The notes below the pieces were generated by a model. That model worked only from the letters and a program-made list of their open reading frames with translations, searched no databases and had not been told where the DNA came from. Below, one piece after another: positions 13,163 to 37,335 of a stretch of 64,000 nucleotides of DNA (its first letter is position 1; every line of letters starts with the position of its first letter). The translations under genes and the position numbers were made by a program. This stretch comes from an uncultured Planctomycetales bacterium (GTDB taxonomy: Bacteria; Omnitrophota; Gorgyraeia; Zapsychrales; CAYRXT01): positions 4,382-68,381 of the forward strand of contig CAYRXT010000004.1 of NCBI GenBank assembly GCA_964428315.1, read 5' to 3'.

Positions 13163-13199
13163 ACGGGGCCCCTCGCTTCCTGAAATACATCGATCCGCG

Positions 13200-15129: not shown

Positions 15130-15167
15130 AGCGCCTTGTCTCGAAAGATTCCCGGTTTTTTGCTGTC

Positions 15168-15710
15168 TTGCGGAGGCCCGTCAGATATACTTGTATTGAA
15201 AGCCGTACGCCCATGGCCCTTCATCACACAACGTTCGTCTGTCCCAAATGCCAGGGAGACGACCTGGATCCGGTGCCCTATGTCTACCAAATCCTGAGGT
15301 CGGACGCCGCGGGCCGGCGCTTTTTCGCTGATCCAGAGAGCTTTTATCCCGGAGACAAAATGGACAAAAAGCACCGGGAACGCTTGTTACACCGGCTAAC
15401 GCCCCCGCCGGAACCCAAGAAATCCCTTCCGGCCGGAGCGATAGCTATCATGGCCTTCGTTCTCTCCTGGCTGATTACCGGCTCTCTCCTCATCGGCCGG
15501 ATAGGACAAACAGCTTATTTCGTTTCTTCCCTTATTGTCATCCTTTGCACGGCCTTCCCTTTTTACGCCACTCTGCGTTATGTCGACCGGGAATTCCGCA
15601 AATCGGTTGCCCGTTACAACCGTATTAAACCGCTGTGGAACAAACAGTACTTTTGCAACGGATGCCATCACGTCTTCATCCCAAAAAAAGGCGTCTCTTC
15701 CCTATATTAA
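15168..15710 (+). CDS. Membrane protein with N- and C-terminal zinc-ribbon-like CxxC pairs
   Basis: CPKC...CNGC flanking two predicted TM helices; start uncertain (alternative ATG at 15213). Confidence 0.45.
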   Translation: MRRPVRYTCIESRTPMALHHTTFVCPKCQGDDLDPVPYVYQILRSDAAGRRFFADPESFYPGDKMDKKHRERLLHRLTPPPEPKKSLPAGAIAIMAFVLSWLITGSLLIGRIGQTAYFVSSLIVILCTAFPFYATLRYVDREFRKSVARYNRIKPLWNKQYFCNGCHHVFIPKKGVSSLY

Positions 15711-15829
15711 ATCATGCGCGTCCAAATGAGGACCGGATTATCAACGGCGGATTGGAGGTTAGTCATGGAACCATGCCCTCCCCGCACGCTTTTAGCGGGG
15801 GAGACACCATTATTGAAATAGCAATGGTA

Positions 15830-16996
15830 TTAAAGGATGCGCACGCACAATTCATCCAGCACCAGGCGTCCTTTATCCGTAAGACAGACCCGGTCTCCCT
15901 GAGAGGAGAGAAAACCTTCCCTGATGAAATCCTTTACGGCCTCATGCTGGCGTTCCGTCAGCCCGTTTCCGAAACGTTCTTCTAGGCTGGGGATATCGAT
16001 CCCGGCGTTCATGCGCAGACCGAAGACAACGGCCTCGGTCAACCGTTCTCCGGCGCTCAACTGCTCCTCGCCCTCAACAGCCGTTCCTTTTTCCTTTATC
16101 CTCTGCAGATATGTCATGAGACGCGACGTGTTCCAAAAACGCCTCCCCTCGATATGGGAATGCGCCGCAAGGCCCAGTCCGATATAATGACCGCATGTCC
16201 AGTAGATGCGGTTGTGCCGGGACTCCTTACCCGGCATGCAAAAATTGCTGATCTCGTATTGAAGAAACCCTTCGGCCTTAAGTCTATCGCAAATCATTTG
16301 ATAATGCCGGGCCCGGTCATCCCCTTCCTTTAAGGCCAGACGGCGCGCATAAAAACGGCTTCCGCTTTCCACACTCAAATCATAAAGAGAGATATGATCA
16401 ACCGGCAGACGGATGAGCTGGCGGATGTCTTCTTCCGTGTCGCTCTGCCTCTGTCCGGGCAATCCGAACATAAGATCGCAGCTGATGTTTGGGCAGCCGG
16501 CCTCACGCAGGTCAGCAAGAACTCTCTTGGCATCGGATGAAGAATGATTCCTTCCAAGAAAGTTGAGATGTTCGTCATTGAACGTCTGAACCCCCACGCT
16601 GATCCGGTTAAATCCGATGTCCAGACAATGCGCGGCCTTCTCGGCGTCCAGCGATTCGGGATTAGCCTCTAGGGTCCACTCCGCATCATCGTCGACGCTG
16701 AACATTTCCCGGATGATTTCAACCAGCTCCGCGATCTCGGATCTGTCCAGAAGACTGGGCGTTCCGCCGCCGACATAAACGGATTTGACGCGCCTCCCCC
16801 GATAGGCTCCGGCCTCGCGCCGCAGGGCATTCACATAATCACCCCTCCGTTTTTTCTGTCCGACCGCAACGGCAAAAGAACAATAAAAACATTTCTTATT
16901 GCAAAACGGAATATGAATGTACAAGGCGAATGGATGCGATGAATGCGGCATGGACGTGTTAGACAAATTGGTTTCCCCAATCATTTTTCTAAACAT
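15830..16996 (-). CDS. hemW: Radical SAM heme chaperone HemW / HemN-like oxygen-independent coproporphyrinogen oxidase family
   Basis: LYIHIPFCNKKCFYCSF (CxxxCxxC + HemN signature), GGGTPSLL; start codon choice uncertain (16996, 16984 or 16951). Confidence 0.85.
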   Translation of the reverse strand: MFRKMIGETNLSNTSMPHSSHPFALYIHIPFCNKKCFYCSFAVAVGQKKRRGDYVNALRREAGAYRGRRVKSVYVGGGTPSLLDRSEIAELVEIIREMFSVDDDAEWTLEANPESLDAEKAAHCLDIGFNRISVGVQTFNDEHLNFLGRNHSSSDAKRVLADLREAGCPNISCDLMFGLPGQRQSDTEEDIRQLIRLPVDHISLYDLSVESGSRFYARRLALKEGDDRARHYQMICDRLKAEGFLQYEISNFCMPGKESRHNRIYWTCGHYIGLGLAAHSHIEGRRFWNTSRLMTYLQRIKEKGTAVEGEEQLSAGERLTEAVVFGLRMNAGIDIPSLEERFGNGLTERQHEAVKDFIREGFLSSQGDRVCLTDKGRLVLDELCVRIL

Positions 16997-17348: not shown

Positions 17349-17437
17349 ATGTCCGCATTAACTCCCCGCTTCGCGCCTCCCGCCGATGACAGCTTTCTAG
17401 CATTGCATTTTTCTTGAAACGAGGGATAATAAAAACC

Positions 17438-19768
17438 ATGGCAACGAAAAAAGGAACCGAGTTTGCGGCCGCGGCCGTCCTCCTGTTTGGTCTTTTAAGC
17501 CTCTCGTTTTATGATGTCTTCTTCCTCGGCAAGACGTTCAAGGTCACCACGGCCATCGCGCAGACCATGCCTTACGGGCCGTACAATCAAAGTGAAAACC
17601 GTCCGCGGTTCGTGCCCGTTAACGGAACGGACAGCCCGGTCCTGGAGGAGCCGACTTACGCCTTCATTAAAAAGAATCTCCGACGCGGCATTTTGCCGCT
17701 GTGGAATCCGCATCAGGCATGCGGGTTTCCCCTGATCGCCCTGATCCAGGTGGGGATGTTTTTCCCCTTAAATTTCATTCTCTATGCATTCCCGTCCTCT
17801 TTGGCCTGGGACATATTGATCATCAGCCGTTTCCTCCTGGCCGGCCTGCTGACGTATGCCTTTCTGCGGAGACTGCGCATGGACCGCATCTCTTCCGCCT
17901 CAGGCGCGGTCGTCTTTATGCTTACGGGCCCGATGGTTCTTCTGCAATACTGGACGGCCAATGTCGACATCCTCCTGCCGCTTGTTTTGCTGTGCTACGA
18001 GAACATCATCCGCAGTGCCAGCACGCGCGACTTGGGCTTTGGCGCGGCGGCCGTCGGTCTGACGGTCTTGGCCGGACATCCGGAACATGTCTTTCTGGTC
18101 AACGCCCTGGCCGTCGCCTATTTTTGTTTCCGCCTGGCCACAATCCGTCCGCGCGTCAGCTGGAAAAAACGCGCGACATGGCTCGTCACGGCGCTGGTCC
18201 TGGGCGCGGGGATCGCCGCGGTTGTCATCTTCCCTTTCGTCCGCAATTTCACGGCCACGCTCTGGAACGCCCATCCGCTGGGTGTGGGGCTTACAACGGG
18301 TGAACATCAGTACAAATTCATTTCCGTTTTTCTCCCGCACTTTTTTCAGAAGGAACCGCTCACCTATGATTTTCATTTCGCCGGCTGGTGGGGCGGTTAT
18401 ATCGGAATCCTTCCCTTCGCCTTCGTCTTTTTCAGCCTTTTCGGCCGCCAGAGACAGGGTCTCAACACCTTCTTCGCCATCGCCGCCGTTCTTATCATCG
18501 GAAAATGTTACGCCGTACCCATTATCAACTGGATTGGTTATCTCCCCGTTTTCCATAAGATCCGTTTTTATATCCATGCCACACATCTATTCTCATTCTG
18601 TATGGCCGTGCTGGCGGCCATGGGCGTGCGGTCGCTGGGCCTTCACCGCCGTGTTCTTAAGAAGGGGCTCCTCTTTGTCCTGATTGTCTTCGTCCTCGTT
18701 GCCCTTCATCTGCTTTACTTCCAAAAGGCCGACCATTTTCCCCTGTCGATGAGGGCGGCCGCGTTCTGTTTCGCACTCCTGGCGTTTTTTCTATCCTTGC
18801 TTTATTTGAGGGATACGGGACACCTGTCGCGACGTTGCCTCGGCCTTCTGCTGACCGGACTTCTTGTCTTCGAGCTATTTGCCTACATCCACCGCGAACG
18901 GCCGGCACGCTTTGATTCCTTCGGCCGGGTGCCTTATGTGGAATGGTTGAAGGAACGTCCCGGGCGGGACCGTGTCTACGGAATTTTCGGCGCCCTGTAC
19001 CCGAACACGGCATCCGGCTATTTTGTCGACGATCTGGGGATTTTCTTCGGACTCGTGCCCGAGCGATTCGTAAAGTACGTCAACAGCCTGCTCATCGAGG
19101 ATCTTTTCCGCAACAACCTGCGGCCCCCGGCGCTCAGGACGATCCCGGTGACCTTTCTTCCCGATAAAAAGCCCTTTTTAAACATCCTTAATGTCCGCTA
19201 CACGATCGCCCCGAAATCACTGGGCCGCATCATGCCGGTTACCCGTCATCCGGGATTCGCGGATCCGCTCTACGACGAGGAGGTCAAAATCTTTTCCCAT
19301 CCCGAGGCCCTGCCCCGGGCCTACGCTGTCCACCGTGTACTTTTCGAAAGCGACGACGAACGTGTGCTGGAATTGCTCAAAAAGCATAAAAATCTTTTGG
19401 CCTCCATGGCGGTCATATCCGCGGCTCCGGACGATGAGCTCAACCAACGTCTTCTGTCAGCGCCCTTGGTCGATTCCTCCCGCATCGACATTGTCCGGTA
19501 CACGGCCAATGAGGTTTGGCTCGAGGCTCATATGCAAAACGACGGCCTTGTCGTGCTCAGCGACGGATATCATCCCGATTGGAAGGCCTTCGTCGACGGC
19601 CGGCCGGCCCGTATCTATCCGACCAACTATCTGGTGCGTTCGGTGTTTGTCCCCGGCGGCAACCACAAGATCCGGTTCGCCTTCCGTCCCTTCTGGTTCT
19701 ACGTCGGGTCCGCTGTCTCTCTGGTCTGCCTGAGTATTGTTATTTATCTCATCCGTTCCAAATCCTGA
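17438..19768 (+). CDS. Large polytopic membrane protein, YfhO-like
   Basis: ~777 aa; many N-terminal TM helices, large C-terminal soluble region and a final TM helix. ATG at 17438 has a GAGGGA SD; the tracked ORF extends to a TTG at 17414. Confidence 0.5.
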   Translation: MATKKGTEFAAAAVLLFGLLSLSFYDVFFLGKTFKVTTAIAQTMPYGPYNQSENRPRFVPVNGTDSPVLEEPTYAFIKKNLRRGILPLWNPHQACGFPLIALIQVGMFFPLNFILYAFPSSLAWDILIISRFLLAGLLTYAFLRRLRMDRISSASGAVVFMLTGPMVLLQYWTANVDILLPLVLLCYENIIRSASTRDLGFGAAAVGLTVLAGHPEHVFLVNALAVAYFCFRLATIRPRVSWKKRATWLVTALVLGAGIAAVVIFPFVRNFTATLWNAHPLGVGLTTGEHQYKFISVFLPHFFQKEPLTYDFHFAGWWGGYIGILPFAFVFFSLFGRQRQGLNTFFAIAAVLIIGKCYAVPIINWIGYLPVFHKIRFYIHATHLFSFCMAVLAAMGVRSLGLHRRVLKKGLLFVLIVFVLVALHLLYFQKADHFPLSMRAAAFCFALLAFFLSLLYLRDTGHLSRRCLGLLLTGLLVFELFAYIHRERPARFDSFGRVPYVEWLKERPGRDRVYGIFGALYPNTASGYFVDDLGIFFGLVPERFVKYVNSLLIEDLFRNNLRPPALRTIPVTFLPDKKPFLNILNVRYTIAPKSLGRIMPVTRHPGFADPLYDEEVKIFSHPEALPRAYAVHRVLFESDDERVLELLKKHKNLLASMAVISAAPDDELNQRLLSAPLVDSSRIDIVRYTANEVWLEAHMQNDGLVVLSDGYHPDWKAFVDGRPARIYPTNYLVRSVFVPGGNHKIRFAFRPFWFYVGSAVSLVCLSIVIYLIRSKS

Positions 19769-26306: not shown

Positions 26307-29300
26307 TTAGTTTGAAAGCATTGAGAGGCTTTTTTTCTTCCTCTTGCCGTCGTCAAGTCCGAGAATAAAATTCACGTGGTTGGGGATGAGGTGGAACTGG
26401 AGGATATCGTATTCGAATCCGGGGAAGTTCTGTATCTCGGCGTCCGGGACGGGGATGTCTCCCCACCGGATATCGCCCTTGCCGTCGGAACGCAGCTTTA
26501 TTTCCGTCGTTGTCCAGTCGATACCGCCGGAATTCCCCCTGTCCGCCGGGGGCATTATCGGACTGCCGGATGAGACGGCAACGTGTTCTTGATCCTTTTC
26601 GGGGATCCCCTCCCTCGTTGCCTTTATATCAGCATTGTTTCTCCTTTCCCGCAGATTATAGACGCCCGGTGGTTCGCCAACAACGGATAGTACACCGTTA
26701 GAGGAGCCAGGTCCCGGGGCCTTTAAAGGTCGTGAAATTCCGCCGTGCCCGCTTGAGCCTGATATGCCATTGCTCCTATCCCTCCGGTTTGTTTTCCATT
26801 CCTGGAAAAAGGCATACACCTCCATCGTCAGGACTCCGAACAGCCCAAGGACGGGGAAGAAAAACGCACCCATGTAGAAGAGAGAGATGCCCCATTCCGG
26901 CATATCTCCGGAATAAATGTTACTTAAAAACTTGGCCCGCTTGAAATTGAACTTTTCAAAGAATCCTTTCATGCCGCGACAGGCCATTTTCGAAAACAAA
27001 CCGACCCCGGACGCTATGAGGCGCTGCAGTATGTTCAACCGGCCGTTATCTGCATTTCGCAGTATCTTGACCAACCGGTCATAATAAAAAAATTCGGCCG
27101 ACAGTTTCATTTTCGCGTTAAACGGCTCCAGAAAATGCTTTAGCAATAAATACAAAACACCGACGACCAGAAAAGACGACTGGCCGAAGACAATGGGGAT
27201 TTTCAGCAAGGGGACGAGGGCGACCGCCAGGGAATCGATCCCAACTGACGGCATACCCGTCCATAACGCCATGGCATTATAAAGTGAAAGCGCAAGCGTC
27301 AGACCGACAAGAACCGCGGATATCGATATGCTCCACATCCTCATATTGTTTAAGAAATGATACCCTCCGACGCCGCTGTAATTTGGCGGGAACATATATG
27401 TCATGAACAACTCTTTGGCCCTGCGTCTGAGGCGCCTGCGTTCCGAACTCAGATCTCTTTCCAACGCCGCCTCATCCAGGCTTTCCCCGAACAACGAGGC
27501 CTTCTTATTCTTCAATACCCTCAATTTCTGGATATATTTGTTTATGGCCTTGTATGTATTCAGTTGAAATTCATCGCTGTTGACCTTGATTCCCGAAAGC
27601 CGCCGGTTTAACTTCGCCCAGGGAAAACCCCATTTCATCCCAAATTTATCCGTATCCGGGTAATACCGGCTCTTATAGGAATCGACATTTGAAAAATTCC
27701 CTAAAGCTCCTTTGGCTTCGTTCAATGTCTCGACAAGCGTCAGCAGATATTCGAAACGCGCATGATAGTCATTCTCTTCAGATTTAATGGCCTCTCCTGC
27801 TTTTTCGTAAAGAAACCGACTGAGTTCGGAAGCCATCTTTCTCAATCTGGCGTAGTAGGTATCAAAATCCTTAAATTTCTCGAAGTCCAAAGGATAATTG
27901 TCCATGAAGACTTCAAGACCGGCTATTAAATCATCAAGCTCGGAGATCTGCGGGAGATCTTTTTCCATGAGGATCTTATATCCCCTGTTGAGGACCCCTT
28001 GGAAATCGTCCACTTTGACTGGAAGTTGCAGTTCCCGGTATCTTTTTTCCTGATTGCTATCCCGGAAACGGATTGTGGCCTTACCGTTTCCTTCAGCATC
28101 CCCCAGGGCGTCCTCAACCCTGATGCGGATCTTCGATTCCGGACTAATATCCAACGATATTTTTTCCGGGGGAATACTCCTGCCCCCGACCTTCAAGATT
28201 ACGTCCTCGGTTTCAAGCAGTCTGGCAATCCGCTCGCGAGTCTTTTTGCGAAAACGGTATGTCCCGATAAATCCTTCATTGACAAAGACGATTTCCAGCC
28301 CGCCGTTCATTCGCCGCACCTCCACGCCGGAATATTCTTCTCCTTTCAAAAGGAAAAGGGAAACCGGATTGAACCGGGATGTATTAATGCCCAGTTTTTC
28401 GTTCAAAGTCTTCAAGAATTCGTCTTCGGGTTTGCCTCCGTTCCGGCTGAAGAGGACAGGGTCTCCCTCGGTCCCGTCTCCTTCACTCACCTCCGCACTG
28501 TCTTTCCAGCGACGGTATTCCACGTTGATCTTCCTGTTGATCCACAGCGGCCCAATCAGAGCCCGGAAGGTCATAACCGTTAACAACTGACCGGCCGCTA
28601 GCAAAGCCGCCGGCGGCAATCCAAAAACAAAGAAGAGAAATGCTAACCCGGCGCCCATAGCCGCCATATTGTTAAAAAAGCGAAACAGGCGTTTGTGCTT
28701 GCTCGAAAGAGCGCGTCCGCTTAGATCCAAGGGGGGTTCCTCGATATATTTACGAAAAAGATAATACTCTTTCTCCAACCTGTCTCGTTTCAAAGCACGC
28801 ACAGGCCGCCGACGTCCAAGGATACGGGTCTCCAGGGTGTCTACACGTTCGCTCTGCCGGTAAAACCGGGGAAGAGACCGATGCTTCAAACGCCAGAAAT
28901 ATCTCTTCAACCAGAAATCCGATCCTGAAAGAAGGCGTTTCATTTTATCGATCGGAACGACCCAGCGATCCAGGAATTTCAGTGAAATCTTCAACTTGTC
29001 TTTCTCAGGTAAAAAGTCATGCCGGTAGCCGTATATGCTGGCAACAAGCGAGGCCAGGTGCCGCACCTCATTGCTGAGATCCTTTCTTTCCTTGAAATAA
29101 TGCAAATACTCATCCAGCTTAGCCAGGCACTCGTCACATTGCTGAAGGATCTCCGGTTTCCTGTACCCGGCGGCCGCCGCGCTCTCTCCCGTCAACGATG
29201 TCAGCTCTTCCCGCAAGCCTTTAAGACTTTCCTCATTTCCCCGTCTGTCGTTCTGCCCGGACGATAAGGCTTTCTTATAATTCTTCAGCACCGCCGTCTT

Positions 29301-32300
29301 CTCTTCTAAATGAATGATCGTGCGCCGGGCCAGGTCTCTCAGAATATAAGACTCATGGGCATTGGAGGAAAAGTTTTTGAGTTGAAAAGACATGCCGGGA
29401 TCATCTCGATAGGCGGCGGAGCGGCGCACGATATTTCTGAGTTCTGCCAGAGAGAGAACTTGTCCCCGAAGCCGTTCTTCCCAATAGTCCGATAATTCAT
29501 AAAAACGATTGCGCTTCAGTAAGATATCGAATTTCTGTCTTCCAGCATTTTCGGCCCGGAAAAAAAGATGCATGTATTCCGATCCGCCCATTTCTTTGAA
29601 ACCCTGAAATTTAAATATGATGTTGTTGGAATGGACCTCGAGGCCCCGGAACTGTAACGGAACCGACTTTCCGTTCTTGCGAACAATCCCGATGACGCCC
29701 TGTTCAAAGAGCTCCAGGATATGCCGTTCCATTTCTTTCAAATCGACAAATTTGTTTTTTCTCAAACCCGAATTGGTCAAAAGAATGAGCTTGATTTTAT
29801 TTCCGATGTAATTGGCCTTGATGCCAGTCAACCTGAATTGTTTTTGAACAAGGGGTTTGGAGGGCTGAACGTCGAATGTATTCTTCTTATCCTTCCTCAG
29901 ACTCCCGGATAACCGCCGGAGGAAGACCTCTTCTGCAGTAATGACCTTTTTGCGTGACCTCAGGTTTTTTGAAAGACTACCCGCCAGGCAAATGACCGAG
30001 ATAAACTCGATGATGGGAACGCCAAACTTTGACCACCATCTTCCGAGAGGCGTTTGGATTTTAGGGATATTGGCAATGGCCGGATTCTTGTTGTCTTCGC
30101 CGGTATTGTCTTTCCGCACAGCGGCGGCTCCTGTCTGTAAGTTCCCCGAATGTTCTGTGTTTTGATCTATCGCATCTATCCTTAAGACCCCGAATATCCG
30201 TTTTATCTTTTGCCAAATGCTTGTGACGGAAGAGCCTTCCTTCGTCCCCCCGTTTTCCAAGGCGGCTGTATCCGGGCTGTTCTTCTGATCTTTCAGTACC
30301 GGTAAGCTCTTATCGGACGGCTCTCCCTGCTCTTTTTTTGCTTCCCTGCCTTCCCCGGAAGGGGCCCTGTGCAGTTGGCCCTCTTCCCAAAGGACTTCCA
30401 CGGCGTCGGCAATCGCCGCATCGGAGGTGTCTTTACCGTCAAGGTTCTGATTGCCTCCCTTCCAGGGGATCGGACTGCTGACGATACGTCCGTCCGTAAG
30501 CCGGACATCACCCGTCACCGGGACCTTGTCGTGCAACTGCCGGGCCACGGCGAGGGCCTCGAAGGCAATCCTGGCGGGACGGTCCGGACGGCTCCAGTCC
30601 GTGCGCACCAGCACATCCACCGTATAATTTATATAGTCCTGATCGATGGGGCCGTCCCGGGCCGTCTCCTTCCCTATAAGGACAGCCAGGTAACGGTTCA
30701 GGGTTTTCCTGTCAAAGGGCAGGATCTTCTCTGGCCGGGGTGTTTCCGGTTGCCGGGGCTCATGTTCTTTCCCTGCGGGTTCTCCGGATTTTTCTTTCAC
30801 ATCTTTTCCCGCGGCAGCGTCAGCGGAAACGGTTTCAGCGCGGCGGGCATCTTCCCTCCCGGCGGCCTCATCAGAGACCTCTTTTTCACCGGGCACTTCT
30901 TCATCCACCGCGTCCACCGCCTTTCCCTGTGCTCTTTCGGCCGGATCGCCGGCGGCCAGTTCGACGGGCATCCATGGTTTCATCGCCTCCAGAAGCTGGC
31001 CGCGCTCGTCTTCATCGACCGGCATCCCGTCGATCTCCTCATGGTCCTGAAGGAAGGCGTACATGTCCGTGACGGGGACAAAGCCCGTATTCCCGATGAC
31101 AAAACCCCACTCCTCTTCATACCGGACCATGGGGCCCAGTCGTCCGCGGACGGCGGGATCCCGTTCCAAATGGACGTAATCCTCGGGCGGCCGGTTTTTC
31201 GCCATCTGCCCGTCCAGGTAATCCCTCATAATCTCTTCCAGCATGCCCTCCCCGGCAAGATAACGGGATCCCTGCGAGGCGAGGTACGCCTCCATCTTCC
31301 CCCGCACCTCTTCGAGCCTTCGGCGCTCTCTTTCCAGGTCCTCCATAAGTCTCAGGGTCCGGTCATGCTCGACGGACCGGAGCCGCTCAATCAATACCTC
31401 ATACGCCCTGATCCTTTCGTCAATATCGGCCATAACGCTTCCTTCAACGGTCCTGTGATGTTCATTCTGCCGGTCGGTCTGTTCGGCCAGCACCTTCTCC
31501 CTGGCCTTGTCCTGTTCCTCCCTGTCCCGGGCCTCCCCCATCGCGTCGTCGGGTGGATAACGGAATTCGGCGCGGACACCCGCCGTCTTGTCTTCCGCCA
31601 CGCGGATTCCCAGACGAAGGTTATCATTGACATCGTAATCCATCCCTCCGCTGATAGGTCTTCGGCCGGCGGGGTCATGCCCCTTGTTTTCCTGGTCCAA
31701 CAGATACGGCATACCCCCCTCCGTTATCCCCACCGGCATCTCGAAAACACCGCCCCATCGCCCGCGCCGGTATTCCGCGGCCATCCCGTGTCCCGGCCCT
31801 TCTCCCTGGAACGCGGCGATACGGTATCGCCATAACAGATTGCCCCCGAACAGGTCGGCTCCCACCGGAAAATCCAGGTAGGCGCCGGCCGCGTCCTGAT
31901 AGGGCACGTACACCACGCCCGCCGTCACCGGCACGGCGAATATCCCCCGTCCGCCGCTGCCCATCTGCGCGCTGAGATGCCACACGTTTCCGTCCAAGCG
32001 GTCCCAGTCATCGCCGCGCAGATTCAGGGAAAACCGGAAGGTGTGGCCGATGACCGGCGTCACCGCCCTCAGACTGAATCCGAAATCTTTCCGGGCATTG
32101 TCACCCAGCGCCGTATACCCAATCTCGCCGCCCTCGGAACTGTAACGGCCGACAAGCGAAAATCCCGCGGGGCCCACGTTAAGACCGCTTTCGGTATCCA
32201 CCGTCATCCGTCCCTGTCCGTCATGTCCGGTATAGGCGGCGTCGATACGGACATCCGGCCTGGCCGCGGGGCCTCCCCCGCCCCCCGGATCCAGTCCGCC

Positions 32301-35300
32301 GGCACCGGTCGGGATCTTCACCTTGGTATACATCTCGATCATGTTTTGGGAATCGTGCCCGATGGGTTCCGTGAAGTACCGTCCGCCCCATCCGAAATTC
32401 TCTATCCCGAAAGGATTCTTCAGCTCCACACCGTACTGCCATGCGTATTTCTCCGCCGACATGAACGGCACAATATTTTTGACAAGCGAGGGATCCTCAA
32501 ACTCACGCGTTACCCAGAATTTCCCGGACTTGGCCACATCTCCCATAGGGATGTTCTCTATGGCTCCCGTGTACCGGTTGTCGTTCAAGCGGTCCCCGCC
32601 GATATTGTTCCCGTCCAGCCTCTCCCAGGTAAAACCCACCGTTACCCCGTCCCTGATGAGTTCATACCCCACTTCGATGAGGCCGAAATACACGTTCCCG
32701 TATCCGTCCGTCACCGTCGGAAAATGCGGCCGCAGGATACTGAACTCAACGCTCGTCGACAATCCTCCCGAAAAGGGCGGCGACATGCCGAAATGGAAGC
32801 CCCGGGTTCCATAGCCCTGGTTGATATCCCGCACGACCCCGACGGAATGCGGCCAGGGAATCCAATTTAATGGGGCCTTCCATGTCAGTTGCGCCGAAAG
32901 CGCCCCTTTGTCCGGTTTCGCCTTGATGCCCACTTCGAGGGGCTTTCCCACGAGATCCCCGGCGTCGGCCGTGATTTTCGCCTCTGGGTATTTGTCCTTT
33001 CTCTCAACACCGCCGCCTCCGGCTATCGACCGGCCGCCCTCCGGGATCCAGTGTGACTTTTGTTTGACTTCAGCCTTCTTGATATTAATGTTTGCCATGT
33101 TGAACAAAGAGGGATCGCCTTGTCCCGCCGGCCGGACAACCTCCGCTTGACCGGATTCCGGGGAGGAAGGTTCCGCGATATCACCCTCGTTCCCCGCTGA
33201 TCCCCCGTTGTCTGTCCCGGGAACCGGCAACCCTTTCTTCGGAACGTTGTTTCCCGGCGGACTTCCGTTACCGTTACCGTCGCCGCTGCCGCCGTCCGAA
33301 CCATTACCGCCGCCGGGAACCGCGCCCAAACCGGATCCGGGGAATGAAAGCTCCGCGTCCCCGTCGCCCGGCATGATATCCAAAGGCACCGCCGCGTCCT
33401 GATCCCAGCGCTCCGTGAAATTACCGGTCTTCCACGCAATGTCGTCAAGCGCCTTGCGGAACCATCTCCAAGCGGTCTCATAACGTTCCGGGAACTTCGT
33501 GACCAGGATATTGCCCCCGCCGGGATAAGGGACATTGCTCACGAACTTCCCGTCCACAGGATAGTCGAAGGTCACCATGCCCCTGCCCGCATCCAGTTCG
33601 ACGGCGCCGAAAAGGGCCTCGGCGGCGATTCTCAAATCCTTTATCTCCTCCGTCGTCAACGCGGCGTCGGGATTTTGATAATAGGTTAGCAGGATCCTGG
33701 CCGTATTCCTGATATAGCCATCATTGATGTGTCCGAACTTTTTCAGAGGTTCCAGATACCGGACGATAGACGCCTCATCAAAAGACATATCCTTTTCTAT
33801 CCGGGGCCCGGTCTGCGCGGGAGGGTCGGCGAGAGGCGGATCAACCCTTTCGGGAGAGATTTTTGCCGTCTCTCCGCCGCTGACCTCGGTCTCCAAGGGG
33901 CCGGCCGGATCCCCGGAGCTTGTCGGGAGGATGTCTTCTTCTAAAGAGGTCCCCGTCATGTTTCCCGGTGACCCGGGCTCCAGATAATAATGCTCCGAGA
34001 GATGGACATTGGGCGGCGGGAGCACCGGGAAGAAACCGGCTGCTTGGTATCCATGAACAGCCGTCGGGATAACGTTCAGATGCGGTTCAAGCGGCGAATC
34101 GGAGGGATCCGGCGGCGCCTGTGGGAAAAGGGGCATTTGTGCCGATTCGATAGCGCCGAATATCGTCATCCCGATCATCAGAGCGGCCATATGCGGCAGG
34201 TATTCCCTGGCCTTGCCGCGCATGGAGACGAGGACATTGGGATTGAGCTCAAAACGCGAAGGCGTCAGGTGACGCCGTATAGCGGCATTCCGCATCTTAC
34301 GGCAGAAAACCTCCAGGTCATAAAACGTCACGTGCCTTTTTTCCTGAAGATGAAATTCCCGGTCTCGCAGGGTGAAATAATCCAGGAGTTTCTTCAGGTC
34401 GCTTTTTCTCCTGTCCGCGGAGGAAAAGGCGTGGTGGACCAGCCTCTCGGCCGCCTCGGTCCCAAACTCGTATTGCGCGGCCTCAAAAACCCATGCCTTC
34501 TTTATATTCTGGATGAGGCGGCGGATTTCCAGGACCGCCTCGTGCGCGTCCGTCCTGGGATCCACGAATATCTGCTGTTTGCCGTCGATCTGTTCGATCC
34601 GCACCATTTTGGATCGTTCGTTGTCCGCCACGTCATCGAAACGGGTGACCGTGACATCAAAGCGCCTGTTGAATATCATGTCGCAGGGCGAAGATATCTC
34701 CCGGATCTTCTCTTCAATGAGCTTCCACTCCTGAAAAAGGCCCCTGGCCAGTTCCTTGGCCTCCTGTCTCTGCCGGTCGCGAACGTCCTTTCTCCCGTGA
34801 TAATCGAAATGAAACCTGACGGGAAGGTAAGATGTCCGCAGAAGATAATCAGGCGCATAGGTCTCCAGCGCTCTGCCGATGAAACGGCCAGCCTTGTTCA
34901 GATATTTAATCTTGCGGCCGGACAAGACGACGGCATGCGAATCCGGGCCGTAAACGTACATGCCGCGGTCAACGGAAGTTTGGATGGTCTGCCTGGCCGC
35001 CAGCAGGGCGTCGGCATAGTCATCCTTCCCGTTGGCCAGTAATGCCGCCAGACGTTCGATCTCGCCCAGGGCCTGGCCGATCTGGTCCTCTTTCAATCCG
35101 GGCGTCGTCAGGATATCTGTTATCAGACGGTCCAGCCATCCCATCATCCGCCCGCCCAGGGCATTGATCTGGTCCTTGTTAACGGCCTCCGGCGCGAGGT
35201 CCGAATAAACCAGTTGGTCGATAGCCTCGCCCGTTATATTCCTGTGCGCCGCCTTCAGCCGCCCTCTGGAGCCTTTCAGCAGCCGGGAGATCAAGGGGGA

Positions 35301-36896
35301 CGGCCGCGCGTCCAAAGCCCCGTCGATCTTTTTCAATTGAATAGGGATCTTGTCCTCGAAGAATCCTTCCAGTACGGCCTGAAGGCTGAATAACCTTGCC
35401 ATGGGAAAAAGGATTTGGAGGAGGGCGGAATATCCCAGCACGCCGAAAGGACGCGCGCGGCCCTCCGGTTTGTTCCCGCTCTTCAAGGCATCAGGATCCG
35501 GTGTGGGACCGGCCGGCGTTGAAGGCATGGAAGGTACGGCATCCGGTTCCTCACCCGCGGTTTCGCGCCCAGAGGCCTTACCCAAGGAGGGCTTCGCAGG
35601 TAACGGGCCCATGGCCGTCTTGAGTTTTATGCTCAGTCGGTGAAGCTTCCCGCGGATATGATTCAGCATCTCCCGCCCGACGACGGGGCTTATGCCGGCC
35701 ACCTTGCGGGTCTTGACCCACCTTCGCAGGTTGCCCCATGACATGCCTCCGGAAAAATACCGGCGGTGCACGAAATCTTTTTTGAAGGGGTCATAATCGG
35801 TGCGGATGATGTCATGGGTTCCCTCTTTATAGGCGTCGATATAACGCTCATAGATTTTTTGTTTGGTCTCCCGGTCGTCAAGGTCGACGCCCCGGATCTT
35901 GTTCCTGTCGGCGTAAATGCGGTTCACGACGTTGCGCCTGAGATTAAGCTTGAACCAGGCCGCCAAGATCAGGGAATGGTAAAGCTGACGCAGACCGGTG
36001 AACTGGCGGCCCTCGTTGATCTCCTTCTCGATCTCCGGCAGGATAATCTCCGAGAATATCCTGCTTGACATATTGTGGACCTCGGTCACCTTCTCGGTCT
36101 CCAGGATGTCGGTACCGAGATTTTTGTTCCTGAGATTATTCTTGAGGGCCAGGTAATCCCCTTCCATCATCACCTTGAGCCGGCTCCTGGTCACGAATGC
36201 CTTGTTGCCGATCTCGTAAACAACAGCCTCATCGGGAAGGATCCAGACCTTATTGAACGTGTTGATCGGGAAATCCGTGGTTCCGTAAACGGCGTGCACC
36301 TTCTCATAAATCCGTTCCCAGAACCTGCGGCCGGAGGGTTCCTCGGGGTTGGTCAGCACCGAAGAGAGCTGCTTGAGGAGATAATCCTGGATAAGCAGAT
36401 CTTTTCCCGCGTCCGTGGCGCCGAGATAGTCCGGTATTATGCGGTCCGACTCGTACGGGGAAAGGTTCACCCAAAGGTCTTCTTCGGGCACGGTCAGGAA
36501 GGCCAGAAAATATTTCACTAGCCGCGAGGCCTCTTCTTCGTCGAGAGAGGCCTTGTCACCGGAATCGATGATGAAATCGATCTTAAAAGGGTCCTGGGGG
36601 TCGACCTGAATTCCCCTTAATATCGGCGGGGAAAATACCGTCGAGGACGGCATCACCGCGGAGGGGGCGGGCAGGACAAGCGGCGCCTGCGCCCGCGCGT
36701 AACGCAGTCGCGCGACGTCCAGGGCGATGATGTTTTCGCAAAAGAAGAGCAAAACGGCAAGGGAGAGAACGCGGAATGTCCTGGAGTCGCGACGGAAAGC
36801 GAAAAATCCCGGCCGTCCAGGCGGATATCTTGTCCGGTTCAAACCCGGCCTTCCGTTTCCGTTTTGCTGCGCCCTGTGTCTGGTCGTTCGGGTCAT
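26307..36896 (-). CDS. Giant 3,529-aa envelope-associated protein of unknown function
   Basis: Uninterrupted 10,590-nt ORF. N-terminal Arg-rich segment plus hydrophobic signal/anchor (VLSLAVLLFFCENIIAL...ARAQA). Gly/Asn/Asp low-complexity linker, a ~500-aa Gly/aromatic-rich beta-type segment, an acidic coiled coil, and a Lys-rich C-terminal third with several hydrophobic helices. No P-loop, protease, glycosidase, RTX or cadherin motifs seen. Confidence 0.85.
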   Translation of the reverse strand: MTRTTRHRAQQNGNGRPGLNRTRYPPGRPGFFAFRRDSRTFRVLSLAVLLFFCENIIALDVARLRYARAQAPLVLPAPSAVMPSSTVFSPPILRGIQVDPQDPFKIDFIIDSGDKASLDEEEASRLVKYFLAFLTVPEEDLWVNLSPYESDRIIPDYLGATDAGKDLLIQDYLLKQLSSVLTNPEEPSGRRFWERIYEKVHAVYGTTDFPINTFNKVWILPDEAVVYEIGNKAFVTRSRLKVMMEGDYLALKNNLRNKNLGTDILETEKVTEVHNMSSRIFSEIILPEIEKEINEGRQFTGLRQLYHSLILAAWFKLNLRRNVVNRIYADRNKIRGVDLDDRETKQKIYERYIDAYKEGTHDIIRTDYDPFKKDFVHRRYFSGGMSWGNLRRWVKTRKVAGISPVVGREMLNHIRGKLHRLSIKLKTAMGPLPAKPSLGKASGRETAGEEPDAVPSMPSTPAGPTPDPDALKSGNKPEGRARPFGVLGYSALLQILFPMARLFSLQAVLEGFFEDKIPIQLKKIDGALDARPSPLISRLLKGSRGRLKAAHRNITGEAIDQLVYSDLAPEAVNKDQINALGGRMMGWLDRLITDILTTPGLKEDQIGQALGEIERLAALLANGKDDYADALLAARQTIQTSVDRGMYVYGPDSHAVVLSGRKIKYLNKAGRFIGRALETYAPDYLLRTSYLPVRFHFDYHGRKDVRDRQRQEAKELARGLFQEWKLIEEKIREISSPCDMIFNRRFDVTVTRFDDVADNERSKMVRIEQIDGKQQIFVDPRTDAHEAVLEIRRLIQNIKKAWVFEAAQYEFGTEAAERLVHHAFSSADRRKSDLKKLLDYFTLRDREFHLQEKRHVTFYDLEVFCRKMRNAAIRRHLTPSRFELNPNVLVSMRGKAREYLPHMAALMIGMTIFGAIESAQMPLFPQAPPDPSDSPLEPHLNVIPTAVHGYQAAGFFPVLPPPNVHLSEHYYLEPGSPGNMTGTSLEEDILPTSSGDPAGPLETEVSGGETAKISPERVDPPLADPPAQTGPRIEKDMSFDEASIVRYLEPLKKFGHINDGYIRNTARILLTYYQNPDAALTTEEIKDLRIAAEALFGAVELDAGRGMVTFDYPVDGKFVSNVPYPGGGNILVTKFPERYETAWRWFRKALDDIAWKTGNFTERWDQDAAVPLDIMPGDGDAELSFPGSGLGAVPGGGNGSDGGSGDGNGNGSPPGNNVPKKGLPVPGTDNGGSAGNEGDIAEPSSPESGQAEVVRPAGQGDPSLFNMANINIKKAEVKQKSHWIPEGGRSIAGGGGVERKDKYPEAKITADAGDLVGKPLEVGIKAKPDKGALSAQLTWKAPLNWIPWPHSVGVVRDINQGYGTRGFHFGMSPPFSGGLSTSVEFSILRPHFPTVTDGYGNVYFGLIEVGYELIRDGVTVGFTWERLDGNNIGGDRLNDNRYTGAIENIPMGDVAKSGKFWVTREFEDPSLVKNIVPFMSAEKYAWQYGVELKNPFGIENFGWGGRYFTEPIGHDSQNMIEMYTKVKIPTGAGGLDPGGGGGPAARPDVRIDAAYTGHDGQGRMTVDTESGLNVGPAGFSLVGRYSSEGGEIGYTALGDNARKDFGFSLRAVTPVIGHTFRFSLNLRGDDWDRLDGNVWHLSAQMGSGGRGIFAVPVTAGVVYVPYQDAAGAYLDFPVGADLFGGNLLWRYRIAAFQGEGPGHGMAAEYRRGRWGGVFEMPVGITEGGMPYLLDQENKGHDPAGRRPISGGMDYDVNDNLRLGIRVAEDKTAGVRAEFRYPPDDAMGEARDREEQDKAREKVLAEQTDRQNEHHRTVEGSVMADIDERIRAYEVLIERLRSVEHDRTLRLMEDLERERRRLEEVRGKMEAYLASQGSRYLAGEGMLEEIMRDYLDGQMAKNRPPEDYVHLERDPAVRGRLGPMVRYEEEWGFVIGNTGFVPVTDMYAFLQDHEEIDGMPVDEDERGQLLEAMKPWMPVELAAGDPAERAQGKAVDAVDEEVPGEKEVSDEAAGREDARRAETVSADAAAGKDVKEKSGEPAGKEHEPRQPETPRPEKILPFDRKTLNRYLAVLIGKETARDGPIDQDYINYTVDVLVRTDWSRPDRPARIAFEALAVARQLHDKVPVTGDVRLTDGRIVSSPIPWKGGNQNLDGKDTSDAAIADAVEVLWEEGQLHRAPSGEGREAKKEQGEPSDKSLPVLKDQKNSPDTAALENGGTKEGSSVTSIWQKIKRIFGVLRIDAIDQNTEHSGNLQTGAAAVRKDNTGEDNKNPAIANIPKIQTPLGRWWSKFGVPIIEFISVICLAGSLSKNLRSRKKVITAEEVFLRRLSGSLRKDKKNTFDVQPSKPLVQKQFRLTGIKANYIGNKIKLILLTNSGLRKNKFVDLKEMERHILELFEQGVIGIVRKNGKSVPLQFRGLEVHSNNIIFKFQGFKEMGGSEYMHLFFRAENAGRQKFDILLKRNRFYELSDYWEERLRGQVLSLAELRNIVRRSAAYRDDPGMSFQLKNFSSNAHESYILRDLARRTIIHLEEKTAVLKNYKKALSSGQNDRRGNEESLKGLREELTSLTGESAAAAGYRKPEILQQCDECLAKLDEYLHYFKERKDLSNEVRHLASLVASIYGYRHDFLPEKDKLKISLKFLDRWVVPIDKMKRLLSGSDFWLKRYFWRLKHRSLPRFYRQSERVDTLETRILGRRRPVRALKRDRLEKEYYLFRKYIEEPPLDLSGRALSSKHKRLFRFFNNMAAMGAGLAFLFFVFGLPPAALLAAGQLLTVMTFRALIGPLWINRKINVEYRRWKDSAEVSEGDGTEGDPVLFSRNGGKPEDEFLKTLNEKLGINTSRFNPVSLFLLKGEEYSGVEVRRMNGGLEIVFVNEGFIGTYRFRKKTRERIARLLETEDVILKVGGRSIPPEKISLDISPESKIRIRVEDALGDAEGNGKATIRFRDSNQEKRYRELQLPVKVDDFQGVLNRGYKILMEKDLPQISELDDLIAGLEVFMDNYPLDFEKFKDFDTYYARLRKMASELSRFLYEKAGEAIKSEENDYHARFEYLLTLVETLNEAKGALGNFSNVDSYKSRYYPDTDKFGMKWGFPWAKLNRRLSGIKVNSDEFQLNTYKAINKYIQKLRVLKNKKASLFGESLDEAALERDLSSERRRLRRRAKELFMTYMFPPNYSGVGGYHFLNNMRMWSISISAVLVGLTLALSLYNAMALWTGMPSVGIDSLAVALVPLLKIPIVFGQSSFLVVGVLYLLLKHFLEPFNAKMKLSAEFFYYDRLVKILRNADNGRLNILQRLIASGVGLFSKMACRGMKGFFEKFNFKRAKFLSNIYSGDMPEWGISLFYMGAFFFPVLGLFGVLTMEVYAFFQEWKTNRRDRSNGISGSSGHGGISRPLKAPGPGSSNGVLSVVGEPPGVYNLRERRNNADIKATREGIPEKDQEHVAVSSGSPIMPPADRGNSGGIDWTTTEIKLRSDGKGDIRWGDIPVPDAEIQNFPGFEYDILQFHLIPNHVNFILGLDDGKRKKKSLSMLSN

Positions 36897-37335
36897 GATC
36901 TCAAATGTTTCGGAGAGAGGAATCTTATTGTGCGCAAAGAGATTAAAGACAAAATAAGACTACTCCAAAATAGTTAAGAAATTTTAAAATTCGTATGACT
37001 TTTAGAATAATTAGTTTTCGCGGTAAGGCCGTCGAGCCGACGGCGGTGACCTCAATAGACAGCGTTCCCCATGGCGGAGACAGAGGGGGAATCCGCCTCC
37101 CCTTCTGGGAGGGCCAGGGAGCTATCAGGAAAAGCACACCCGTATAGCCGCCCATCAAGCAAACGGCGCAAAACCCTCTTTTAGCCCAACCAGGATTCTG
37201 TAGAACCTGAATGTTTGACAGCCATCGGAGATCTCTTCAATGTGCATTAGGACGCGCCCGTGTCGTAAAGACCACGGGCGCCGTTTGGGGTGACTGGAGT
37301 GGGACTGTGGCTGGCATGTTTATGAACGGGCACCG

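What the first reader, a model, noticed from the sequence alone, without database searches (positions are those of the whole stretch)
26307..36896. Single uninterrupted 10.6-kb ORF encoding a 3,529-aa envelope protein with no recognisable domain
Directly seen: one stop-free frame of 10,590 nt on the minus strand, impossible by chance, especially through its A/T-rich 3' third. The product starts with an Arg-rich segment and a hydrophobic signal/anchor (VLSLAVLLFFCENIIAL...ARAQA). It is followed by ~1,100 aa with no motif I can assign, a Gly/Asn/Asp linker, a ~500-aa beta-type Gly/aromatic-rich block, an acidic coiled coil (IDERIRAYEVLIERLRSVEHDRTLRLMEDLERERRRLEEVRGKMEAYL) and a Lys-rich C-terminal third containing at least five strongly hydrophobic helices. 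None of the usual giant-adhesin signatures are visible (RTX GGxGxD nonapeptides, tandem Ig/cadherin repeats, LPXTG, T1SS C-terminus), and no internal tandem repetition was seen. Giant surface proteins of unknown role are known from a few uncultivated lineages, but this architecture (signal anchor, embedded beta-rich block, C-terminal membrane module) does not map onto a described family.
Basis: partly seen in the sequence, partly recalled or inferred. Interest (0 to 1): 0.8.

Follow-up and report, generated by a model that had tools for sequence, protein, structure and literature searches.

The report
Omnitrophota giant exported protein, orphan body
This real 10.6-kb gene encodes one member of a very large, uncharacterised family of giant exported proteins, found almost only in Omnitrophota bacteria, that share a signal peptide, a conserved front domain and a short conserved tail around an otherwise unique middle; the middle of this one resembles nothing among 1.8 billion proteins.

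Summary
The ORF is real: 26307..36896, minus strand, 3,529 codons, with in-frame GC3 bias throughout. Chance of no stop is about 1e-66. No Pfam, NCBIfam, PHROGs or PDB match exists anywhere in it.

It is not family-less. Residues ~30-400 are 38-54% identical to the N-termini of 577 other proteins of 1.9-6.1 kaa, and to at least 594 loci in GTDB representative genomes. Nearly all are Omnitrophota, with several ancient paralogues per genome.

The family architecture is:
- a cleavable Sec signal peptide ([small]-x-A|Q)
- a ~330-aa N-domain with no known relative or fold
- a hypervariable body
- a ~70-aa C-terminal motif (GGIDxNP...GFxPVIINI...LG), which the query keeps at its extreme C-terminus

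The query's body is an ORFan.

Best reading: an exported envelope protein anchored in the inner membrane. Its two constant ends probably serve a common, undescribed export or sorting route, and its body is variable payload. It is a new variant of the known Omnitrophota giant proteins. Function is inferred, not shown.

The parts
26307..36896 (-). Complete ORF, 3,529 aa plus stop. The public model P0001 starts at codon 19, a TTG at 36842.
36897..37335 (-). 439-bp upstream intergenic region. The last ~140 bp are AT-rich. No Rfam match.
36690..36896 (-). aa 1-69: Sec-type signal peptide with a long Arg-rich n-region, an h-region at aa 43-61, and ARA|QA at the position of the family's signal-peptidase I site.
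35697..36689 (-). aa 70-400: conserved family N-domain (motifs DPFxxDFIID, DLWVNLSPYE, NTFNKVWI, PEIEKExNxGxxF, RRYFSGG). It is 38-54% identical to hundreds of Omnitrophota giant proteins.
35370..35426 (-). aa 491-509: marginal hydrophobic segment (KD 1.61, internal Arg). It is positionally conserved in the closest subfamily. TM status is unresolved.
33810..35369 (-). aa 510-1029: orphan region ending in a Pro/Glu-rich spacer (aa ~900-1029).
33504..33809 (-). aa 1030-1131: X module, copy 1.
33102..33359 (-). aa 1180-1265: Gly/Asn/Asp/Pro-rich linker (27% Gly).
31527..33101 (-). aa 1266-1790: Gly/aromatic beta-rich block with no Cys. It has 22 amphipathic alternating 9-mers (10-12 in control regions) and ends ...GVRAEFRY.
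31218..31424 (-). aa 1825-1893: charged helical segment with heptad-like periodicity (putative coiled coil).
30441..30743 (-). aa 2052-2152: X module, copy 2.
29970..30026 (-). aa 2291-2309: TM helix opening the C-terminal membrane module.
28680..29969 (-). aa 2310-2739: repeat module R1 (net charge +38; predicted cytoplasmic).
28554..28679 (-). aa 2740-2781: TM hairpin between R1 and R2.
27345..28553 (-). aa 2782-3184: repeat module R2, a diverged copy of R1.
27144..27344 (-). aa 3185-3251: cluster of 2-3 TM helices.
26805..26888 (-). aa 3337-3364: last TM segment.
26322..26534 (-). aa 3455-3525: family C-terminal motif, subtype B (GGIDW...GFEYDILQF...ILG...LS).

Best explanation
The ORF is an intact gene for a giant exported envelope protein of an Omnitrophota-type bacterium. 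It belongs to a very large, phylum-centred, multi-copy family of 2-6-kaa proteins.

The family architecture is: a cleavable Sec signal peptide, then a ~330-aa conserved N-domain of unknown fold, then a hypervariable body, then a ~70-aa conserved C-terminal motif.

Shown: family membership at both ends, the orphan status of the body, the internal duplications and the TM segments.

Inferred:
- The protein is translocated by Sec and its signal peptide is removed.
- The two constant ends are the handles through which one common, still undescribed pathway sorts, anchors or processes all family members. The body is the variable payload.
- In this member, about 2,200 residues (N-domain, orphan region, X module, Gly linker, beta-rich block, coiled coil, second X module) lie outside the cytoplasmic membrane.
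- The C-terminal module anchors it. That module has about six TM helices carrying two basic ~430-aa cytoplasmic repeats and returns the C-terminal motif to the outside.

By analogy with larger Omnitrophota giants, the likely role is envelope or surface scaffolding, or host/prey contact.
For: **Gene is real.**. The identical product is recorded from NCBI and from Logan assemblies.

**N-domain.**
- 577 hits, all listed ones 1,943-6,139 aa, matching only query aa ~30-400 and always at their own N-terminus.
- 53 invariant columns in 15 diverse members.
- At least 594 loci in GTDB representatives. Of the best 79, 59 are labelled Omnitrophota/Omnitrophica and 19 are 'uncultured Planctomycetales' bins.
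- 3-5 copies per MAG among the best 79 loci alone, only 50-72% identical to each other.

**Signal peptide.** [small]-x-A|Q in 75 of 93 members; the query has ARA|QA.

**C-terminal motif.**
- Present in 99 of 119 members by regex, plus about 11 more by eye.
- A profile built from them hits the query at aa 3455-3525, its extreme end (E 7.6e-7).

**Export of the family.** 101 of 120 members have no strong internal TM, so the family as a whole is predicted to be fully exported.

**Variable bodies.**
- Only 3.5% of member pairs share any body similarity.
- The query body has no relative by word-index search or by exhaustive HMMER over 1.84e9 proteins for aa 1030-2229.

**C-terminal module.**
- Collinear with P0002 over 1,245 aa, including TM positions and the tail.
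- R1 has net charge +38, consistent with the positive-inside rule.
- P0002 has a PG_binding_1 match after its N-domain, consistent with a periplasmic location.

**Literature.** Omnitrophota long proteins are overwhelmingly predicted to carry a signal peptide and/or TM helices.
Against: - No experiment or predictor (SignalP, DeepTMHMM) was available. TM number and parity in aa 3185-3364 are unresolved, and aa 491-509 could be a TM helix, which would put the body in the cytoplasm.
- The query's c-region is atypical, with charged residues between the h-region and ARA|QA.
- The 'handle' role of the N-domain and C-terminal motif is inferred only from conservation and position. No conserved partner gene lies within 3 kb upstream. 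No secretion genes are in this window.
- The N-domain model is only moderate (pLDDT 63) and the tail model is unstructured.
- Many family bodies carry cytoplasm-type enzymes (PGK, ABC1 kinase, REC), which fits awkwardly with export.
- The taxon of the window itself was not determined directly.
Confidence: 0.6

Rival explanations
1. Envelope-spanning protein. The Gly/aromatic block (aa 1266-1790, especially 1555-1790) is an outer-membrane beta-barrel embedded in the middle of the chain. One polypeptide would then be held in the inner membrane by its C-terminal helices and in the outer membrane by the barrel.
For: - 16% Gly, 11% aromatic, no Cys.
- 22 alternating amphipathic 9-mers against 10-12 in control regions.
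- The last strand, TAGVRAEFRY, resembles an OMP beta-signal.
- The topology would be self-consistent if both flanks are periplasmic.
Against: - No Pfam or NCBIfam OMP model matches, even at E<=10.
- No homologues exist to build a profile.
- No structure prediction was possible.
- Soluble beta-rich folds (beta-helices, CBM-like barrels) are what was reported in unannotated parts of Omnitrophota giants.
- The beta-signal motif is degenerate.
Confidence: 0.12
2. Adhesin or 'coat' protein for attachment to a host or prey cell, as proposed for larger Omnitrophota giant proteins. This is compatible with the best explanation but is more specific about function.
For: - The literature links Omnitrophota giant proteins to attachment and predation.
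- The large exported portion, Gly linkers and coiled coil resemble surface fibrils.
- The closest relative, P0002, lies directly downstream of a T2SS/type IV pilus-like cluster.
Against: - No adhesion domains (Ig, cadherin, discoidin, dockerin, lectin) are detected.
- No T2SS or pilus genes are in this window.
- The body is unique to this organism, so no comparative support exists.
Confidence: 0.3
3. Cytoplasmic-body topology. The segment aa 491-509 is a true stop-transfer helix, so only the N-domain is periplasmic. The body (aa 510-2290) would be cytoplasmic and the R1/R2 modules periplasmic.
For: - A hydrophobic segment preceded by basic residues is positionally conserved in the closest subfamily (query, P0002, P0063, P0076).
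- This topology would make sense of cytoplasm-type enzymes in other family bodies.
Against: - KD is only 1.61, with an internal Arg.
- Most family members have no such segment (median best KD 0.93; 101 of 120 have no strong internal TM).
- P0002 has a PG_binding_1 match just after its segment, and P0076 has similar-looking sequence by eye.
- R1 has net charge +38, which argues it is cytoplasmic.
Confidence: 0.15
4. The N-domain is an enzyme, for example a Ser/Lys-type autoprocessing peptidase or a ligase. It would cut or attach the giant precursor, so the gene would encode a polyprotein.
For: - Very strong conservation, with invariant polar residues (S146, K175, K216, E149, D171, N144, R303...).
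- Peptidase domains near the N-termini of larger giants have been proposed to cleave them.
Against: - No sequence or fold similarity to any peptidase or enzyme.
- No invariant His or Cys.
- The most conserved motif lies in a low-confidence loop.
Confidence: 0.1
5. Assembly artefact or fused pseudogenes: two or more genes joined in frame by misassembly.
For: There is a GC3 step at about aa 2100. The source is a metagenome-derived contig.
Against: - The ORF starts with the family signal peptide and N-domain and ends with the family C-terminal motif, exactly as intact relatives do.
- P0002 shows the same N-domain, C-module and tail order.
- Coding bias is continuous.
- The identical protein is recorded from two sources.
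- The X module occurs on both sides of the putative join region.
Confidence: 0.03

Closest known systems
Omnitrophota giant proteins ('Archaeovorins' and multi-enzyme giants; West-Roberts et al. 2023 bioRxiv 10.1101/2023.11.21.568195; Seymour et al. 2023 PMC10066038; Nielsen & Lui 2026 bioRxiv 10.64898/2026.06.07.730766)
   Same: - Same phylum-level distribution.
- Very long, mostly unannotated, signal-peptide and/or TM-bearing proteins.
- Relatives of the query carry the same kinds of embedded domains (HEAT, methyltransferase, NUDIX, glycolytic enzymes, REC, AAA).
- Its closest relative sits next to a T2SS-like cluster, as reported for the giants.
   Different: - These papers treat proteins of >=10-30 kaa; the query is 3.5 kaa.
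- The query has no SecA-DEAD, glycosyltransferase, HEAT or dockerin domain.
- None of the three papers read describes the conserved N-domain plus C-terminal motif. West-Roberts states that N-terminal regions 'generally lack identifiable domains'.
Type IX secretion cargo proteins (Sec signal peptide + payload + ~80-aa C-terminal domain)
   Same: The logic is the same: a cleavable signal peptide, arbitrary payload, and a short conserved C-terminal element shared by many otherwise unrelated proteins in one genome.
   Different: - No match to T9SS CTD or any other sorting-signal model in NCBIfam or Pfam.
- The tail is predicted unstructured, not an Ig-like beta-sandwich.
- T9SS cargo lacks a conserved N-domain.
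- T9SS is described in Bacteroidota.
Two-partner-secretion exoproteins (FHA, CdiA: signal peptide + N-terminal TPS domain + multi-kaa variable body)
   Same: A conserved ~250-330-aa domain sits immediately after the signal peptide of very long, variable exoproteins, and there are multiple paralogues.
   Different: - No Haemagg_act/TPS domain match.
- The N-domain is predicted to be mixed alpha/beta, not a beta-helix.
- No adjacent TpsB-type transporter.
- TPS proteins lack the conserved C-terminal motif.
Polymorphic toxin / effector systems (Zhang et al. 2012, PMC3482391)
   Same: Constant trafficking module(s) combined with highly variable payloads, and a multi-copy family within genomes.
   Different: - Here both ends are constant and the middle varies.
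- No toxin or immunity pair, or known trafficking domain, was detected.
- The paralogues are ancient (50-72% identity), not recent cassette swaps.

Membership tests
Unnamed Omnitrophota family: signal peptide + N-domain + variable body + C-terminal motif (defined here) | Conserved ~330-aa N-domain directly after the signal peptide | tested here: met
   - 38-54% identity; E down to 1e-130.
- Always N-terminal in the hits.
- All 53 invariant columns of alignment A1 are present.
Unnamed Omnitrophota family: signal peptide + N-domain + variable body + C-terminal motif (defined here) | Sec signal peptide with a [small]-x-A|Q cleavage motif | tested here: met
   ARA|QA at aa 67-71, in register with 75 of 93 members. 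The c-region is atypically long and charged. No SignalP run was possible.
Unnamed Omnitrophota family: signal peptide + N-domain + variable body + C-terminal motif (defined here) | C-terminal GGID...GF.x.I...LG motif within ~60-110 aa of the end | tested here: met
   The family profile hits aa 3455-3525 (E 7.6e-7, 15.4 bits). The alignment is in register, with invariant GG and G. The query carries subtype B, as in P0002.
Unnamed Omnitrophota family: signal peptide + N-domain + variable body + C-terminal motif (defined here) | Host organism in Omnitrophota | not tested
   Inferred only from the family's distribution. The window's genome is not a GTDB representative, and no marker gene was classified.
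Archaeovorin-type giant proteins (West-Roberts 2023) | Length >30,000 aa, with SecA-DEAD, glycosyltransferase, methyltransferase, NUDIX and HEAT domains | tested here: not met
   The protein is 3,529 aa and has no Pfam domain at all.
Archaeovorin-type giant proteins (West-Roberts 2023) | Proximity to a T2SS-like locus, with pilZ genes downstream | tested here: not met
   No such genes were found among the window ORFs scanned. The feature is met only for relative P0002.
Dockerin-type giant proteins | [quoted passage not shown] | tested here: not met
   No Pfam hits.
T9SS cargo | C-terminal domain matching Por_Secre_tail / TIGR04183-type models, with a beta-sandwich fold | tested here: not met
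   No NCBIfam or Pfam hit for the query tail or for 60 family tails. The AF2 model is unstructured.
Two-partner secretion exoproteins | TPS (Haemagg_act) domain and an adjacent TpsB transporter | tested here: not met
   No Pfam hit. Neighbours are unrelated.
RTX / T1SS adhesins, autotransporters, LPXTG proteins | GGxGxD nonapeptide repeats; a C-terminal autotransporter barrel; an LPXTG sorting signal | tested here: not met
   No matching Pfam or NCBIfam models. The tail is the family motif instead.
Outer-membrane beta-barrel proteins | Closed amphipathic beta-barrel with a terminal beta-signal | tested here: inconclusive
   Composition and the strand pattern are suggestive. No OMP model matches. 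No structure prediction was available for this block.

The most novel reading that the evidence does not exclude
The conserved N-domain and C-terminal motif are the recognition handles of an undescribed secretion or sorting pathway centred on Omnitrophota. That pathway would carry hundreds of otherwise unrelated giant payloads, including metabolic enzymes, to the cell surface or into host/prey cells. This particular member, with its embedded beta-rich block and helical membrane module, would be a membrane-inserting or envelope-spanning component of that system.
Probability: 0.2. Interest if true: 0.85.

Novelty: new variant of a known kind. Interest (0 to 1): 0.58.

Why it matters
Omnitrophota are widespread, ultra-small, largely uncultured bacteria with predatory or symbiotic traits. 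Their giant proteins are a recognised puzzle: nobody knows how they are exported or what they do.

This gene exposes a simple, sequence-defined rule shared by at least ~600 such proteins: a signal peptide, a ~330-aa N-domain and a ~70-aa C-terminal motif around a free-varying body. None of this appears in Pfam, NCBIfam, the PDB or the three key papers read here.

If the two ends are sorting or anchoring handles, they give concrete targets for several experiments:
- reporter fusions
- AlphaFold-multimer screens against envelope proteins
- phylogenetic profiling to find the partner machinery
- proteomics (is the N-terminus at Q70? is the tail cleaved?)

The member itself shows how far the payload can drift. 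About 1,200 residues have no relative among 1.84 billion proteins, combined with a membrane module seen in only one other protein.

Tried and rejected
**Curated libraries.**
- Pfam (whole protein, and 500-aa tiles at E<=10), NCBIfam and PHROGs gave nothing.
- PADLOC gave one 12.6-bit hit (PDC-S67, E 0.016), judged to be noise.
- Pfam tile hits CotJB (E 0.19) and LMP1 (E 5.3) were judged to be noise.

**Solved structures.**
- PDB sequence search with the protein and with the N-domain profile gave nothing below E 1.6.
- The afdb50 library was unavailable.
- AF2 of the C-terminal motif with 61 sequences was unstructured (pTM 0.22), so no fold search was run on it.

**Homologue searches for the body.**
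- aa 470-3529: only the protein itself.
- aa 1260-1795: none.
- Exhaustive HMMER on aa 1030-2229: only the protein itself.
- Local phmmer of 11 segments against 119 family members: only P0002, and only in the C-module.
- aa 470-1029 and the C-module were not searched exhaustively.

**Metagenome and contig look-ups.**
- C-module alignment scan found no relatives.
- An exact 40-mer of the gene was absent.
- The look-up of encoding contigs for P0001: not on record.

**Other tests.**
- Plain self-BLAST found no repeats. Repeats emerged only with Smith-Waterman plus shuffles and with cross-protein comparison.
- The two halves of the beta block are not repeats of each other (z 1.3).
- No conserved upstream neighbours in 79 loci.
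- No second N-domain copy in the window.
- No Rfam family or tRNA in the window.
- A Tat signal was considered because of the FRRD sequence and a TatC gene in the window. It was rejected: there is no S/T-R-R-x-F-L-K consensus, and family n-regions are ordinary Sec-type.
- Literature searches found no description of the two-ended family.
Full report
**1.
- The ORF listing and translation give one ORF at 26307..36896 on the minus strand: ATG to TAA, 3,529 aa. No other frame in the region has an ORF longer than 488 aa.
- With the gene's own base frequencies, a stop is expected in 4.2% of codons, so 3,529 stop-free codons have P of about 1e-66.
- GC3 > GC1 > GC2 in every 300-codon block, as in the neighbouring housekeeping genes, so the frame is coding from end to end.
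- The 3' third is indeed A/T-richer: GC3 is 0.58-0.62 after about aa 2100 and 0.68-0.74 before.
- The public model of the same protein, P0001, is recorded from NCBI and Logan. It is 3,511 aa and starts at codon 19.
- The surrounding genes are ordinary chromosomal genes: a purine operon, TatC, a cation-chloride cotransporter, IMPase and radical-SAM enzymes. There are no secretion genes, no tRNA and no Rfam match.

**2. 'No recognisable domain' is true for curated resources.**
- Pfam (whole protein, and nine 500-aa tiles at E<=10), NCBIfam and PHROGs give nothing.
- PADLOC gives a single 12.6-bit hit that I regard as noise.
- PDB sequences give nothing below E 6.

**3. The protein is not family-less.**
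- A search of 5.8 billion proteins returned 577 hits. All 119 listed besides the protein itself are 1,943-6,139 aa long (median 2,623). They match only query residues ~30-400 at 38-54% identity, always with their own N-terminus.
- Their precomputed Pfam content downstream is extremely varied: M48 peptidase + ABC1 kinase, PGK, hexokinase, malate synthase, PGM, HEAT, methyltransferases, REC, AAA, NUDIX and others. I confirmed four first-hand.
- Fifteen diverse N-termini align with 53 invariant columns. The motifs are DPFxFDFIID, DLWVNLSPYE, DYxLKQ, NTFNKVWIxP, PEIExEVNxGxNF and RRYFSGG.
Of the best 79, 59 are labelled Omnitrophota/Omnitrophica (including Ca. Aceula), 19 are 'uncultured Planctomycetales' bins, and one is a 2.3-kb contig of a Ca. 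Elulimicrobium bin.
- Single MAGs contribute 3-5 loci to the best 79 alone. Their N-domains are only 50-72% identical, so the paralogues are old and maintained.
- The window has a single copy.

**4. Both ends of the family are constant.**
- *N-terminus.* The N-termini are textbook cleavable Sec signal peptides: a basic n-region, an h-region, and a [small]-x-A|Q site in 75 of 93 members. The query has ARA|QA at aa 67-71.
- *C-terminus.* Reading the C-termini revealed a second conserved element, GGIDxNP...(~35 aa)...GFxPVIINIxPvxNLPxLLG...LS. It lies 58-110 aa from the end in 99 of 119 members by regex, plus about 11 by eye. Most of the rest look truncated.
- A profile of these tails hits the query at aa 3455-3525, exactly its C-terminus (E 7.6e-7). 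The 61-sequence alignment is in register.
- The query, P0002 and a few others carry a variant of the motif ('GF.F.I..F') and also share a short N-domain extension.
- *Export.* 101 of 120 members have no strong internal hydrophobic segment, so as a class they are predicted to be fully exported.
- *Bodies.* Only 250 of 7,140 pairs share any body similarity.
- *Neighbours.* No conserved gene lies within 3 kb upstream in 79 loci.

**5. Neither end resembles anything known.**
- The N-domain AF2 model (15 sequences) has pLDDT 63 and pTM 0.61. It shows a mixed alpha/beta domain, and the most conserved motif (WVNLSPYE) sits in a low-confidence loop.
- Fold and profile searches with the N-domain:
  - Foldseek against 350,542 chains: best E 0.45.
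  - N-domain profile against PDB sequences: best E 1.6.
  - Scanning all 15 members against Pfam at E<=1 gives no shared hit.
- The tail is predicted unstructured on its own (pTM 0.22). None of 61 tails matches an NCBIfam model, including the known C-terminal sorting signals.

**6. Anatomy of this member.**

| aa | Feature |
|---|---|
| 1-69 | Signal peptide |
| 70-400 | N-domain |
| 401-490 | Pro/Gly spacer |
| 491-509 | Marginal hydrophobic segment (KD 1.61) |
| 510-1029 | Orphan region ending in a Pro/Glu spacer |
| 1030-1131 | X module, copy 1 |
| 1180-1265 | Gly-rich linker |
| 1266-1790 | Gly/aromatic beta-rich block: no Cys; 22 alternating amphipathic 9-mers against 10-12 in controls; ends GVRAEFRY |
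| ~1825-1893 | Charged, heptad-like helix |
| 2052-2152 | X module, copy 2 (Smith-Waterman 89 against 28 +/- 4 for shuffles, z 14.7) |
| 2291-2309 | TM helix |
| 2310-2739 | R1 (net charge +38) |
| 2740-2781 | TM hairpin |
| 2782-3184 | R2 |
| 3185-3251, 3337-3364 | TM segments |
| 3455-3525 | Family C-terminal motif |

- R1 and R2 are diverged copies of one module. The in-register cross-matches are: q_R2 to P0002_R1, E 9e-8; P0002_R1 to R2, E 2e-8; q_R1 to q_R2, E 0.006.
- The whole C-terminal 1,245 aa is collinear with P0002 at 24% identity, including the TM positions.
- P0002 is the only relative of anything beyond the N-domain. It lies directly downstream of a T2SSE-T2SSF-pseudopilin-PilMNO cluster and has a PG_binding_1 match after its N-domain.
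- The rest of the body is an ORFan:
  - No hit for aa 470-3529 or aa 1260-1795 by word-index search.
  - No hit for aa 1030-2229 in an exhaustive HMMER scan of 1.84 billion representatives.
  - No hit to 119 family members by phmmer.
  - No hit in JGI metagenome contigs.

**7. Most likely mechanism.**
- *Shown:* family membership at both ends, the orphan body, the duplications and the hydrophobic segments.
- *Inferred:*
  - Sec export and signal-peptide removal.
  - About 2,200 residues outside the cytoplasmic membrane.
  - Anchoring by the C-terminal module. R1, R2 and the basic loop at aa 3252-3336 would be cytoplasmic (positive-inside rule). An even number of helices would leave the tail outside, as in the TM-less majority of the family.
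  - The N-domain and the tail act as handles for a shared sorting, anchoring or processing step. They are the only parts kept under strong selection across hundreds of otherwise unrelated payloads.
- This logic resembles T9SS cargo (signal peptide + payload + C-terminal domain) and two-partner-secretion exoproteins (signal peptide + N-terminal TPS domain + giant body). Membership in either was tested and not met.
- The functional class (envelope scaffold, or host/prey contact) rests on analogy with published Omnitrophota giants.

**8. Rivals.** In short:
- an embedded outer-membrane barrel making the protein span the envelope (0.12)
- an adhesin or coat role, compatible with the main reading (0.3)
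- a cytoplasmic body, if aa 491-509 is a TM helix (0.15)
- the N-domain as an autoprocessing enzyme (0.1)
- an assembly chimera (0.03). This is disfavoured because the ORF begins and ends exactly like intact relatives, P0002 has the same order of parts, and the X module lies on both sides of the GC3 step.

**9. Novelty and score.**
- Giant, mostly unannotated, exported proteins are a published hallmark of Omnitrophota, so a 3.5-kaa orphan-looking envelope protein there is not surprising in itself.
- What is not in the three papers read, nor in Pfam, NCBIfam or the PDB, is the two-ended family rule. The combination in this member is also new: an ORFan body, duplicated X modules, a beta-rich block, and a duplicated membrane module seen in only one other protein.
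- I rate it a new variant of a known kind, with interest 0.58.

Noticed in passing
L001:1083-9852 and gene 10001-15895: The closest relative, P0002, lies immediately downstream of a T2SSE, T2SSF, pseudopilin and PilM/N/O cluster on the same strand. This echoes the T2SS-like loci reported next to much larger Omnitrophota giants. The query's window has no such genes.
   Followed up: partly
family-wide (P0002-P0120); query aa 385-430 and 3455-3525 (window 35607-35744 and 26322-26534): The C-terminal motif comes in two flavours. Type A is 'GFxPVIINIxPvxNLPxLLG' (the majority). Type B is 'GF.F.I..F' (query, P0002, P0063, P0076, P0107, P0007, P0032, P0039). Some type-B members (query, P0002, P0063, P0076, P0107) also share an extension after RRYFSGG, which suggests the two ends co-vary.
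   Followed up: partly
window 30600-30900 (about aa 2000-2100 of the ORF): GC3 drops from about 0.70 to about 0.58 near the start of the part shared with P0002 (X2 plus the membrane module). This hints that the C-terminal third has a different evolutionary history.
   Followed up: partly
window 47050-48246 (46-50 kb patch): A STAND/AAA_16 NTPase gene has unusually low GC3 (0.46) and sits in a ~4-kb low-GC patch. It may be horizontally acquired or defence-related.
   Followed up: no
window 1229-11755: A compact purine-biosynthesis operon lies on the minus strand. It includes a PurS-PurL fusion (1,005 aa) and a Sua5/YrdC-LMW phosphatase fusion. The purC and purB ORFs overlap by 188 nt as called, so the purC start is probably further downstream.
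   Followed up: no
L079 (DYOU01000113.1, 2,278 bp): One N-domain locus sits on a short contig binned as Candidatus Elulimicrobium, which NCBI places in the Patescibacteria group. It is either a binning contaminant or evidence that the family extends beyond Omnitrophota.
   Followed up: no
window 36842-36896: The start codon is ambiguous. The ATG at 36896 gives a 42-aa Arg-rich n-region. The public model uses the TTG at codon 19. Family alignments start near query aa ~28. An FRRD pair precedes the h-region but does not fit the Tat consensus.
   Followed up: partly
window 17414-19768: A YfhO-like membrane protein gene coincides with a strong negative AT skew (-0.23) in the 18-20 kb bin. A similar skew (-0.20) occurs at 30-32 kb inside the giant gene.
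   Followed up: no
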